DNA of 64,000 nucleotides from a virus. The notes under the pieces are model-generated. The model did no database searches. It was not told the DNA's origin and saw only the letters and a list, made by a program, of their open reading frames with translations. The stretch is taken from UHGV virus genome UHGV-0373904, one strand, 5' to 3'. The position numbers were made by a program, and so were the translations under genes. How positions within the stretch are numbered: the first letter of the stretch is position 1; each line of letters starts with the position of its first letter. Positions 36,125-38,090 of this stretch are shown here, piece by piece.

Positions 36125-36589
36125 TTACTTTGGATATACACTGTCAAGATAAATGTCAGCTTCCATTCTACGTCTGTTTTTCAGGCCGTTTGAAGTGACC
36201 TTCTTACCTTTGACTGTAACCTTGTTCCACCACTGCATAGCTTCTGCACAACCGACCTTATTACCAGCATTGTGGCGCTTGATAAATGTAGAATCCTGCA
36301 TAGCTGTGATACCGATGTTGTATGTTTCACTTACAAGTGCATCGAACTCGTTCTGAGAAGTTGGAACCTTGATAGCTTTATTCACTGCTGCAACGAACTT
36401 CTCAACATCTGCAAGAAGATACTGTTCAGCTTGTTCAGCAGTAATTTTCATACCCATCTTAACAGGTTTTCCGTCAATACGGATTGTCCCATACCCGATT
36501 GTTGGGATTCCTGCAGAGTCTTCGTAAGCCTCTAACTTCAGACCTTCAAAGAACTTAATAGCCTCTAAACCTTTTCTTGAGAGTTGCAT
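36125..36589 (-). CDS. endolysin, T4-type lysozyme (GH24)
   Basis: FEGLKLEAYEDSAGIPTIGYGT parallels the T4 lysozyme catalytic Glu/Asp region [21 protein letters not shown]. Confidence 0.85.
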   Translation of the reverse strand: MQLSRKGLEAIKFFEGLKLEAYEDSAGIPTIGYGTIRIDGKPVKMGMKITAEQAEQYLLADVEKFVAAVNKAIKVPTSQNEFDALVSETYNIGITAMQDSTFIKRHNAGNKVGCAEAMQWWNKVTVKGKKVTSNGLKNRRRMEADIYLDSVYPK

Positions 36590-37722
36590 TATGCCTCCCC
36601 TGCTGGGTTAACTGTAACTGTTGCTGCATTAGATGTTACAGAGCCACCTGCACCAGTAACTACACAGGTGTAGCTTCCTGAATCAGCAGCGGTTGCACCT
36701 TCTTTAGTGTAAGTTGCAGCGGTTGCATCAAGGATATCTTCCTCACCTTTCTTCCACTGGTAACCTGTTGCACCTGTTGCCACAACATTCAGTGTTAAGG
36801 TCTCACCTTCATTGATTTCTTGATTGGTTGGCTGTTGAGTGATTACCGGAAGTGCATTCACAGTAACTGTTGCTGCGTTAGACGTTACAGAGCCACCTGC
36901 ACCTGTTACAACGCAAGTGTATGAACCTGCATCTGCTGGCAGAGCACCAGACTTGCTATAGGTATCATTTGTAGCTGAAGGAATGTCAGAGCCATCTTTC
37001 TTCCACTGGTAACCTGTTGCACCTGTTGCAGTAACTGCTAAGTTGATGTTTCCACCTTCATTAATAGTCTGGTTAGAAGGTTGCTTGGTAATCACAGGTA
37101 GTGCGTTCACAGTCACTGTTGCTGCATCTGAGGTAACACTTGTTCCACCTTCTCCAGATACAACACAAGTGTATGAACCAGCGTCAGAAGGTGCTACTGA
37201 CTGTTTTGTGTAAGTTGCAGAATTGGCACTAGGGATGTCCTCACCATCCTTTTTCCACTGATATCCAGTGGCGTTAGTTGCTAGAATGGTTAGAGTAAGT
37301 GTGCCACCCTCATTAACTGTTTGACCTGTTGGCTGCTGAGTAATTGCTGGTGGCTTGATAGCATCCTTCAACTTAGCATTCAACATTGAGAACGGCTTAA
37401 CTCTTGCCAACCATTCACAGTAAATTGTGTCAACATCTTTACCATTGATGATTGCATACTGCAAATCCATGAAGAAATCAGCAGTTCTCATCTGTGCACC
37501 AACACTGTAAAGCAATTCATCACTAAATGGAACTTTGTAGTCTGGTTTGTAGTCAAACTTCTCAACTTCTGCGATATCAGCTTCAGGCCAATATGAACTA
37601 TAGGTAAGTGGTAAAATAGCTTCTTGATATGTTCTAAAATCATATCTCTTACCAGCCTTTACATTTGCAATGAAGCCCTTTACAAATTCTTTGAAGTCTG
37701 GGTAAGTCTTTGCTTTAATCAT
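36589..37722 (-). CDS. protein with N-terminal domain plus three tandem Ig-like domains
   Basis: three ~83-aa repeats, each with NEGG..ATGATGYQWKKDG..SYTCVV..ATVTVN; N-terminal ~125 aa paralogous to the adjacent 123-aa protein. Confidence 0.6.
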   Translation of the reverse strand: MIKAKTYPDFKEFVKGFIANVKAGKRYDFRTYQEAILPLTYSSYWPEADIAEVEKFDYKPDYKVPFSDELLYSVGAQMRTADFFMDLQYAIINGKDVDTIYCEWLARVKPFSMLNAKLKDAIKPPAITQQPTGQTVNEGGTLTLTILATNATGYQWKKDGEDIPSANSATYTKQSVAPSDAGSYTCVVSGEGGTSVTSDAATVTVNALPVITKQPSNQTINEGGNINLAVTATGATGYQWKKDGSDIPSATNDTYSKSGALPADAGSYTCVVTGAGGSVTSNAATVTVNALPVITQQPTNQEINEGETLTLNVVATGATGYQWKKGEEDILDATAATYTKEGATAADSGSYTCVVTGAGGSVTSNAATVTVNPAGEA

Positions 37723-38090
37723 TTCTTTTTAGCCTCTAAACGTGCGTTTAATCTAAAATAGCCTTTATGTTGTGGAGATACATCACTAACAACAATACCT
37801 TCAACTTTATAACCCTTGCCAATTACATACTGGATATCCATAAGAAACGTACCAAGCCCAACAATGTGGAACATCGGGTATAGTAACTTATCTGAATCTG
37901 GGAGTTTAATTTCTGGGTTATAGGTGGGTTGTTCGGCAGTTGGTGTAATATCCTCTTCAGGCCATTTACTCATTCTCCATGTTAAAGGTGATGCAATAAC
38001 ATCGTTGAGATTATATCTTTCACCATTCTCTACGGAGTGGATATAGGATTGTAGGAAGCAGTAAAAGTCTTTTGCACTCTTAGCCTTCAT
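37719..38090 (-). CDS. hypothetical protein, paralog of the N-terminal domain of the Ig-like protein
   Basis: shared motifs (WPE[AE]DI, FxxxLQY/IQY, LNAKL/LNARL) with the N-terminus of 36589-37722. Confidence 0.45.
   Translation of the reverse strand: MKAKSAKDFYCFLQSYIHSVENGERYNLNDVIASPLTWRMSKWPEEDITPTAEQPTYNPEIKLPDSDKLLYPMFHIVGLGTFLMDIQYVIGKGYKVEGIVVSDVSPQHKGYFRLNARLEAKKK

What the first reader, a model, noticed from the sequence alone, without database searches (positions are those of the whole stretch)
36589..38090. Paralog pair in the lysozyme operon, one copy carrying three tandem Ig-like domains
The 377-aa protein has an N-terminal ~125-aa domain paralogous to the neighbouring 123-aa protein, followed by three ~83-aa repeats with Ig-like signatures (NEGG..ATGATGYQWKKDG..SYTCVV..ATVTVN). 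The repeats are also visible as ~250-bp tandem DNA repeats, giving scope for copy-number change. Ig-like arrays on phage proteins usually mediate carbohydrate or surface adhesion.
Basis: partly seen in the sequence, partly recalled or inferred. Interest (0 to 1): 0.45.

Follow-up and report, generated by a model that had tools for sequence, protein, structure and literature searches.

The report
Known capsid decoration protein plus paralog
The 377-residue protein is the Hoc-like decoration protein that Felix O1-type phages plug into capsid hexamers, with solved structures and published repeat-number variation, so only its small neighbouring paralog remains unexplained.

Summary
The window comes from a Felixounavirus (Felix O1-like myophage).

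**The 377-aa protein (36589..37722, minus strand).** It is the orthologue of Bas63 Hex-Dec (PDB 9NCF chain S, E = 1e-267) and Sf14 gp20 (9C2D chain S). It has:
- an N-terminal ~122-aa capsid-binding domain (CapBD), which in those phages plugs the centre of edge hexamers of the T=9 capsid;
- three I-set Ig domains (Pfam E = 1e-25 to 1e-33; AF2 pLDDT 95-97).

**Ig copy number.** Relatives carry 1 to 4 Ig units. I found at least five different in-register deletion junctions and hybrid units, which points to recurrent unequal recombination. The variation itself was already published in 2025.

**The 123-aa neighbour (37719..38090).**
- It is a true stand-alone CapBD paralogue: 36% identity, E = 2e-18, and Foldseek finds only 9C2D_S and 9NCF_S.
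- It is translationally coupled to Hex-Dec (ATGA overlap), and the Felix O1 orthologue is transcribed late.
- It is under purifying selection (dN/dS about 0.1).
- It lacks both capsid-anchoring arginines (R79, R107).
- It is not among the proteins listed in the Felix O1 virion proteome.
- It is absent from Kolesnikvirus and decayed in the SP116 clade (about 20 of 253 phage records).
- Neither structure paper mentions it, and its role is open.

Verdict: an ordinary, already explained feature with one small unexplored residue.

The parts
37719..38090 (-). 123-aa stand-alone paralogue of the Hex-Dec capsid-binding domain (Felix O1 ORF37 orthologue; phrog_4463, no assigned function)
   Evidence: ORF. 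It is 36% identical to the CapBD, E = 2e-18. The AF2 model (pLDDT 65) matches only 9c2d_S and 9ncf_S, TM about 0.6. dN/dS is 0.03-0.16. It carries G78 and Q107 where Hex-Dec has R79 and R107.
36589..37722 (-). Hex-Dec: Hoc-like hexamer-centre capsid decoration protein, 377 aa (Felix O1 Gp36, Sf14 gp20 and Bas63 Hex-Dec orthologue), usually mis-annotated as 'tail protein'
   Evidence: PDB sequence hits 9ncf_S at 1.1e-267 and 9c2d_S at 7.4e-169. phrog_3995 at 3e-210. Papers read.
37357..37722 (-). Capsid-binding domain (CapBD), residues 1-122, containing R79 and R107
   Evidence: Four substitutions against the Bas63 CapBD, read from the alignment. R79 is invariant and R107 nearly invariant across Hex-Dec homologues. 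In Sf14, R79 and R107 form salt bridges to MCP Asp221.
37099..37350 (-). Ig unit 1 (residues 125-208), orthologous to unit q1 of the 4-Ig forms
36850..37098 (-). Ig unit 2 (residues 209-291), orthologous to q2. This is the unit missing in the 2-Ig relatives.
36592..36849 (-). Ig unit 3 (residues 292-377), orthologous to the terminal unit q4 of the 4-Ig forms (99% identity)
36125..36589 (-). GH24 endolysin, translationally coupled to Hex-Dec (TAATG overlap)
   Evidence: PF00959 at 6.6e-41. Junction sequence. The synteny holds in 26 of 26 complete loci.
38114..38129 (-). GC-rich hairpin just upstream of the paralogue, annotated as a rho-independent terminator in phage AYO145A
36098..36115 (-). 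Strong intrinsic terminator hairpin plus T-run after the endolysin, closing the three-gene cassette
52826..53938 (+). Major capsid protein (370 aa), the inferred binding partner of the CapBD, with Asp at residue 221
   Evidence: The Sf14 paper names MCP Asp221 as the partner of gp20 R79 and R107.

Best explanation
The 377-aa protein is the Hex-Dec (Hoc-like) capsid decoration protein of a Felix O1-like phage.

Mechanism:
- Its N-terminal 122-residue, largely helical domain inserts as a monomer into the acidic centre of major-capsid-protein hexamers. In orthologues these are the 60 edge (quasi-threefold) hexamers of the T=9 head. Arg79 and Arg107 anchor it to MCP Asp221.
- Its C-terminal string of three acidic I-set Ig domains projects outward as a flexible fibre.
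- By analogy with T4 Hoc, this fibre probably gives weak adhesion to surfaces, mucus or cells, or modulates particle aggregation.

Ig unit number: the Ig units are old repeats (about 67% DNA identity). They recombine out of register by whole units, so relatives carry 1, 2, 3 or 4 units.

The upstream 123-aa gene is a tandem duplicate of the capsid-binding domain alone. It is made late together with Hex-Dec and is functional (purifying selection) but dispensable. Most likely it is a non-displaying, weak or transient hexamer binder or assembly accessory, not a stable virion component.

Shown here or in cited papers: homology, fold, domain architecture, gene coupling, copy-number variation, selection, lineage-specific loss.
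Inferred: capsid position in this particular phage, adhesion role, and the paralogue's function.
For: Identity of the phage and protein:
- The window is a Felixounavirus: 96% DNA identity to phage EcoM2, with 252 related records.
- Hex-Dec matches 9ncf_S at E = 1.1e-267 and 9c2d_S at 7.4e-169.
- Cryo-EM of Sf14 and Bas63 places the orthologue at hexamer centres, with R79 and R107 bound to MCP D221.
- R79, R107 and MCP D221 are all present here.
- Felix O1 Gp36 (294 aa, ORF36 next to the endolysin ORF35) was found in virions by MS.

Ig array:
- Ig fold confirmed.
- The Ig region has pI 4.3, like the negative Hoc-like surface described for Bas63.
- Hex-Dec lengths of 210, 294, 377 and 461 aa occur in 26 complete loci with conserved synteny.
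- Units are positionally orthologous: q1q2q4 here, q1q4 in 2-Ig forms.
- At least five different in-register junctions exist, and the 1-Ig forms carry two different q1/q4 hybrid units.

Paralogue:
- Fold match.
- dN/dS 0.03-0.16.
- ORF36 and ORF37 are both maximally expressed late in Felix O1.
Against: - No experiment exists on this phage itself.
- The Ig domains were not resolved in either cryo-EM map, and no binding ligand is known for this family.
- AF2 failed on the CapBD in the full-length model (pLDDT 35-50), so the fold assignment for that domain rests on sequence identity to solved chains.
- For the paralogue, the two anchoring arginines are replaced.
- The paralogue is not in the list of Felix O1 virion proteins, although proteins of 9.7-13 kDa were detected.
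- No density was reported on the other hexamers.
Confidence: 0.9

Rival explanations
1. The 377-aa protein is a tail protein (major tail subunit with Ig-like domain), as most GenBank, UniRef and PHROG annotations say.
For: phrog_3995 is labelled 'tail protein', and phrog_158 and phrog_853 ('major tail protein') hit the Ig part. Many records say 'tail protein'. Felix O1 Gp36 was originally called the major tail protein.
Against: The tail-protein profiles match only the Ig repeats. Cryo-EM of two orthologues places the protein on capsid hexamers. The Bas63 authors state explicitly that the tail annotation is wrong. The PDB chains belong to capsid reconstructions.
Confidence: 0.02
2. The 123-aa paralogue is itself a decoration protein: an Ig-less cap. 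It would occupy hexamer centres that Hex-Dec does not use (the 20 hexamers on icosahedral threefold axes), or compete with Hex-Dec to set fibre density. It would have been missed because a monomer on a symmetry axis averages out.
For: - Same fold as the CapBD.
- Motifs shared with the CapBD: WPE.DI, LLY, F.MD.QY, K.(F/Y)..LNA.L.
- Late co-expression and translational coupling with Hex-Dec.
- Purifying selection.
- Distant CapBD family members also lack R79 (P0104, P0105), so the arginines are not obligatory for the family.
- In Sf14, the threefold hexamers have shifted Asp221 residues that disfavour the arginine anchors.
Against: - Not among the Felix O1 virion proteins found by MS, although it yields five good tryptic peptides and smaller proteins were seen.
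- Both cryo-EM studies report no density on the other hexamers, and Sf14 encodes the paralogue.
- The gene has decayed in the SP116 clade and is absent in Kolesnikvirus.
Confidence: 0.2
3. The two ORFs are joined by programmed -1 frameshifting at the A-rich end of the paralogue (GCT AAA AAG AAA TGA). This would give a CapBD-CapBD-Ig fusion.
For: Hex-Dec lies in the -1 frame relative to the paralogue, and an AAAAAG run sits 4 nt before the stop.
Against: - The run is not a canonical X XXY YYZ heptamer in frame.
- It is not conserved: other loci have GCTAAGAAATGA, GCTAATAAATGA or GCTGAAAAGAAATGA.
- A GAGG Shine-Dalgarno sequence sits 10 nt before the Hex-Dec ATG.
- No Gp37 peptides were listed in Felix O1 virions.
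- The SP116 clade keeps Hex-Dec with the paralogue destroyed.
Confidence: 0.02
4. The paralogue is a decaying duplicate with no function.
For: It is lost or decayed in about 8% of phage records and absent in Kolesnikvirus. Its dN is two- to ten-fold higher than that of the CapBD within the genus.
Against: It is intact, of constant length (122-124 aa), with dN/dS of 0.03-0.16 across three genera and dS up to 1-2. The ~19 decayed copies retrieved share one remnant, which points to a single loss event.
Confidence: 0.05

Closest known systems
Bas63 Hex-Dec (PDB 9NCF chain S) and Sf14 gp20 (PDB 9C2D/9C3A chain S), the hexamer-centre decoration proteins of Ounavirinae
   Same: Orthologous. The CapBD differs from Bas63 at 4 of 122 residues. 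The R79 and R107 anchors, the N-terminal anchor with C-terminal I-set Ig array, and the position next to the endolysin outside the structural module are all the same.
   Different: There are three Ig units here, against four in Bas63. The window lacks an internal unit. Sf14 also has three, but it is about 25% more diverged.
[quoted passage not shown]
   Same: A monomer at hexamer centres, with a string of Ig-like domains projecting as an acidic fibre. It is dispensable, and Ig number varies among relatives (for the papers' comparison; the T4 details rest on my background knowledge).
   Different: The domain order is reversed: the Hoc anchor is C-terminal. The capsid-binding domain is larger, topologically distinct, pseudo-C2 symmetric and not sequence-related. 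No Hoc chain appears in the sequence searches with the paralogue, whose only PDB hits are 9ncf_S and 9c2d_S.
T5 pb10 decoration protein
   Same: [quoted passage not shown] The Ig part hits pb10 structures 5lxk_A at 1.2e-11 and 8zvi_a at 8.5e-12.
   Different: pb10 has a single Ig domain. The similarity is confined to the Ig region (query residues 131-207), and no homology of the anchor domain was detected.
Kolesnikvirus (Erwinia phage phiEa104 / phiEa21-4) CapBD-Big_2 protein
   Same: A homologous CapBD (profile E = 9e-11) encoded immediately upstream of the endolysin.
   Different: The display module is one Big_2-type bacterial Ig domain, not I-set repeats. No stand-alone paralogue gene is present.

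Membership tests
Ounavirinae Hex-Dec / Sf14 gp20 decoration protein (377-aa ORF) | N-terminal capsid-binding domain homologous to the solved CapBD | tested here: met
   9ncf_S at E = 1.1e-267 and 9c2d_S at E = 7.4e-169. Residues 1-122 differ from Bas63 at 4 positions.
Ounavirinae Hex-Dec / Sf14 gp20 decoration protein (377-aa ORF) | Arg79 and Arg107, which form salt bridges to MCP Asp221 | tested here: met
   R79 and R107 are present. The MCP in the window has D221. The contact itself is taken from the Sf14 paper.
Ounavirinae Hex-Dec / Sf14 gp20 decoration protein (377-aa ORF) | C-terminal array of Ig-like domains | tested here: met
   Three I-set/Ig_3 domains above the Pfam cut-offs. pLDDT 95-97. 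Titin-like structural matches.
Ounavirinae Hex-Dec / Sf14 gp20 decoration protein (377-aa ORF) | Encoded next to the endolysin, outside the structural module | tested here: met
   The MCP gene lies about 15 kb away on the other strand.
Ounavirinae Hex-Dec / Sf14 gp20 decoration protein (377-aa ORF) | Bound as a monomer at centres of quasi-threefold hexamers of a T=9 capsid; present in virions | not testable with these tools
   Shown for orthologues only: Sf14 and Bas63 by cryo-EM, Felix O1 Gp36 and Sf14 gp20 by MS.
T4 Hoc family | Ig domains N-terminal, capsid-binding domain C-terminal, with a homologous anchor | tested here: not met
   The anchor is N-terminal here. The Bas63 paper reports reversed order, a distinct topology and minimal sequence conservation. 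The protein works like Hoc but is not a member.
Hex-Dec-type decoration protein (123-aa paralogue) | CapBD fold | tested here: met
   36% identity, E = 2e-18. Foldseek gives 9c2d_S and 9ncf_S at probability 1.0, TM 0.59-0.61, with no other hit below E = 1. The model is only moderate (pLDDT 65).
Hex-Dec-type decoration protein (123-aa paralogue) | Capsid-anchoring Arg79 and Arg107 | tested here: not met
   Gly at the R79 position in every paralogue that covers it, and Gln, His or Arg at the R107 position, in the 14 paralogues aligned. Only the K109 motif is shared.
Hex-Dec-type decoration protein (123-aa paralogue) | Outward display module (Ig or other) | tested here: not met
   The protein ends 3-4 residues after the CapBD. 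Length is 122-124 aa in all full-length homologues.
Hex-Dec-type decoration protein (123-aa paralogue) | Presence in purified virions | not testable with these tools
   Literature only. Felix O1 Gp37 is not among the 17-18 virion proteins found by MS. It is not mentioned in the Sf14 or Bas63 structure papers.
Pfam immunoglobulin I-set / Ig_3 | Score above the Pfam gathering cut-off | tested here: met
   Ig_3 scores 113.5 bits against a cut-off of 30. I-set scores 87.4 bits against 23.7.

The most novel reading that the evidence does not exclude
The conserved 123-aa gene encodes a previously undiscussed Ig-less version of the capsid anchor that still engages capsid hexamers. It might cap the 20 threefold-axis hexamers that Hex-Dec cannot bind. 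Or it might compete with or chaperone Hex-Dec, so that the phage tunes how many Ig fibres its head displays. That would be a two-component decoration system arising from duplication of the anchor domain.
Probability: 0.2. Interest if true: 0.5.

Novelty: already known. Interest (0 to 1): 0.22.

Why it matters
The main feature adds nothing new. Hex-Dec structure, capsid position and 1-4 Ig variation were published in 2025.

It has practical value for annotation: 'tail protein' is wrong for this gene, and the name has even been propagated to the paralogue.

Two modest additions come from this work:
1. The Ig number changes by recurrent in-register recombination. Several independent junctions and hybrid units show this, and the first and last units are retained.
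2. An anchor-only paralogue is conserved under purifying selection in three Ounavirinae genera, yet it is dispensable and apparently not in virions.

If the paralogue modulates decoration, it would be a simple natural system for studying how phages regulate capsid display. That would be relevant to phage-display engineering on Felix O1-type heads.

Tried and rejected
- Tandem Repeats Finder found no 249-nt array; the units are too diverged.
- The homologue search with the 125-aa CapBD returned almost only 1-Ig (about 210 aa) forms, so it could not give a length distribution. I used IMG/VR loci instead.
- hhalign of the two CapBD halves was not significant: E = 0.2 over 9 columns. It was meant to look for a sequence trace of the published pseudo-C2 symmetry.
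- The programmed-frameshift fusion was rejected because the A-run is not conserved.
- NCBIfam and PADLOC gave nothing for the paralogue. Pfam also gave nothing.
- The Sf14 supplement holds no MS table. The VpaE1 virion protein list is inside a figure and could not be read.
- A search for the paralogue's locus tags found only one annotation table.
- AF2 on full-length Hex-Dec did not fold the CapBD (pLDDT 35-50), in line with the Sf14 authors' remark about AlphaFold.
- One Python run timed out on mafft and was redone.

Full report
**What is there**

Region 36125..38090 carries three minus-strand ORFs:
- a 123-aa ORF at 37719..38090;
- a 377-aa ORF at 36589..37722;
- a 154-aa GH24 endolysin at 36125..36589 (PF00959, 6.6e-41).

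The first stop overlaps the second start (ATGA). The second stop overlaps the third start (TAATG). A GC-rich hairpin lies just upstream of the first gene, at 38129..38114. A strong hairpin with a T-run lies just after the endolysin, at 36115..36098. Both are annotated as terminators in phage AYO145A.

**Checking the observation**

- The N-terminal 119 residues of the 377-aa protein align with the 123-aa protein at 36% identity, E = 2e-18.
- Pfam finds three Ig domains: Ig_3 at 6.6e-33, Ig_2 at 3.8e-27, I-set at 7e-25.
- The units are 84, 83 and 86 aa, 65-70% identical at protein level and 65-67% at DNA level.
- The repeat finder sees the 249-nt period at 72-73% over the best stretches. TRF does not call it.
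- AF2 gives pLDDT 95-97 for all three Ig domains. Foldseek matches titin, Robo and LRIG Ig arrays.

**What it is**

The window is a Felixounavirus: 96% DNA identity to Escherichia phage EcoM2, with 252 related phage records.

The 377-aa protein matches two solved cryo-EM chains:
- 9NCF chain S, the Bas63 'Immunoglobulin-like domain protein' of 460 aa, at E = 1.1e-267;
- 9C2D/9C3A chain S, Sf14 gp20 of 372 aa, at E = 7.4e-169.

The Sf14 paper (PMC11821841) and the Bas63 paper (PMC12609058) establish the following:
- It is a Hoc-like decoration protein, called Hex-Dec.
- Its N-terminal ~118-122-residue capsid-binding domain (CapBD), with pseudo-C2 lobes, sits as a monomer in the centre of the edge (quasi-threefold) hexamers of the T=9 capsid only.
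- It is anchored by Arg79 and Arg107 to Asp221 of three MCP subunits.
- The Ig domains are flexible and were not resolved.

Arg79 and Arg107 are present here. The MCP gene in the window (52826..53938) has Asp221.

In Felix O1 the same cassette is ORF37, ORF36 and ORF35. Gp36 (31.6 kDa, 2 Ig) was detected in virions by MS and mislabelled 'major tail protein'. That is the origin of the 'tail protein' annotation, which the Bas63 authors call incorrect.

**Copy number**

All 26 complete IMG/VR loci keep the order paralogue, Hex-Dec, endolysin. Hex-Dec lengths are:

| Hex-Dec length (aa) | Ig units | Loci |
|---|---|---|
| 210-211 | 1 | 3 |
| 294 | 2 | 11 |
| 298 | 2, more diverged (repeat parser did not split it) | 1 |
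| 377 | 3 | 9, plus the window |
| 461 | 4 | 2 |

- Units are orthologous by position. The 4-unit form is q1-q2-q3-q4, the window is q1-q2-q4, and the 2-unit forms are q1-q4.
- Deletions relative to the window lie at different in-register positions in different phages: nt 610-858, 694-942 and about 621-873.
- The two 1-Ig forms examined are q1/q4 hybrids with different crossover points (nt 463-963 against 565-1065).
- The extra unit of Bas63 differs from the q3 unit of the IMG/VR 4-Ig phages.

So the number changes by recurrent unequal recombination between old repeats, and the first and last units are retained. Variation from 1 to 4 had already been reported. The junction analysis is a small addition.

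**The paralogue**

Neither structure paper mentions it ('paralog' gave 0 hits).

Evidence that it is a real, functional gene:
- Length is constant at 122-124 aa, with 65-99% identity across Felixounavirus, Mooglevirus and the CHB7/phiSUSP1 group.
- dN/dS is 0.03-0.16, against 0.01-0.07 for the CapBD.
- ORF36 and ORF37 are both maximally transcribed late in Felix O1.
- An AF2 model (pLDDT 65, pTM 0.62) finds only 9c2d_S and 9ncf_S in the PDB, with TM about 0.6.

Evidence against it being a conventional decoration protein:
- Both arginine anchors are replaced (G78, Q107), although other motifs are shared.
- It is not among the Felix O1 virion proteins, despite good tryptic peptides and detection of smaller proteins.
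- No density is reported on the other hexamers, and Sf14 does encode the paralogue.

It is also dispensable:
- Kolesnikvirus has CapBD-Big_2 followed by the endolysin, with no paralogue.
- In the SP116 clade the gene is a remnant, with ATG changed to ATA, a ~220-nt deletion and frameshifts. About 20 of 253 records are affected. The ~19 retrieved with the SP116 remnant share it as a single piece, so this looks like one loss event.

**Family breadth**

A profile search of 1.84 billion representatives found only 12 clusters. Distant members fuse the CapBD to a Big_2 domain, to another Ig-like domain, or to a Lys-rich tail. The anchor is therefore a narrow, modular, phage-specific domain.

**Mechanism and verdict**

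The Hex-Dec assignment is secure (0.9). The adhesion role of the Ig fibre is an analogy with Hoc.

For the paralogue, my best guess is a late, non-virion accessory that descends from the anchor. The Ig-less cap hypothesis is not excluded (0.2).

The finding is real but already explained. Interest is low, with one small open question.

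Noticed in passing
window 37719-38090 versus 36589-37722, compared with loci L010-L021: Within Felixounavirus the paralogue falls into two allele classes: about 91-100% and about 81-86% identity to the window. dS between them is 0.7-0.9. In the same phages the adjacent CapBD and endolysin have dS of only 0.1-0.45. This suggests a recombination breakpoint between the two genes and mosaic exchange of the paralogue.
   Followed up: partly
L031 1806-1997 (Salmonella phage SP116), equivalent to window 37719-38090: A decayed remnant of the paralogue: start codon ATG changed to ATA, a ~220-nt internal deletion and frameshifts. About 19 isolates from E. coli, Salmonella and Shigella hosts share it (mio, REP5-12, Tf, Z31, P54 and others).
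   Followed up: yes
window 37719-37745 (end of the paralogue, start of Hex-Dec): An AAAAAG run lies 4 nt before the paralogue stop, and Hex-Dec is in the -1 frame. It looks like a slippery site, but it is not conserved in Mooglevirus or phiSUSP1-type loci.
   Followed up: yes
proteins P0101-P0105; L032 2001-2615: The capsid-binding domain is modular. It is fused to a Big_2 domain in Kolesnikvirus (Erwinia phages), to other Ig-like domains in unplaced metagenomic proteins, and to a Lys-rich disordered tail in P0105. In phiEa104 it still sits directly upstream of the endolysin.
   Followed up: partly
window 39800-41215 (+) and 41381-46684 (+): A 471-aa DUF2828/DUF7788 protein (phrog_850 'RNA-binding protein', annotated vWFA in UAB_Phi87) sits immediately upstream of an array of 26 tRNA genes. 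The same arrangement occurs in Felix O1 (ORF42).
   Followed up: no
window 36589-37722 and 37719-38090; database names: The wrong name 'tail protein' has spread from Hex-Dec to the 123-aa paralogue in UniRef and in several GenBank records. One record calls the Kolesnikvirus homologue 'kappa-carrageenase'.
   Followed up: no
window 37357-37722 (CapBD) in model m79d0c72ddfe9: AlphaFold2 gives pLDDT 35-50 for the CapBD in the full-length protein, although a solved structure exists for an orthologue 97% identical over this domain. The paralogue alone reached pLDDT 65.
   Followed up: partly
LR699048.1 (VpaE1_ev035) and LR597663.1 (VpaE1_ev78), hits H194 and H25: Two records named as 'ev' derivatives of phage VpaE1 differ in how they match the Ig units. 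ev035 matches only the last third of unit q3. This might reflect Ig-unit recombination in laboratory-evolved lines.
   Followed up: no
window 38138-38728 (-): A 196-aa ORF (phrog_4034) directly upstream of the cassette is conserved in Felix O1 (ORF38). It has no Pfam or PADLOC match.
   Followed up: no
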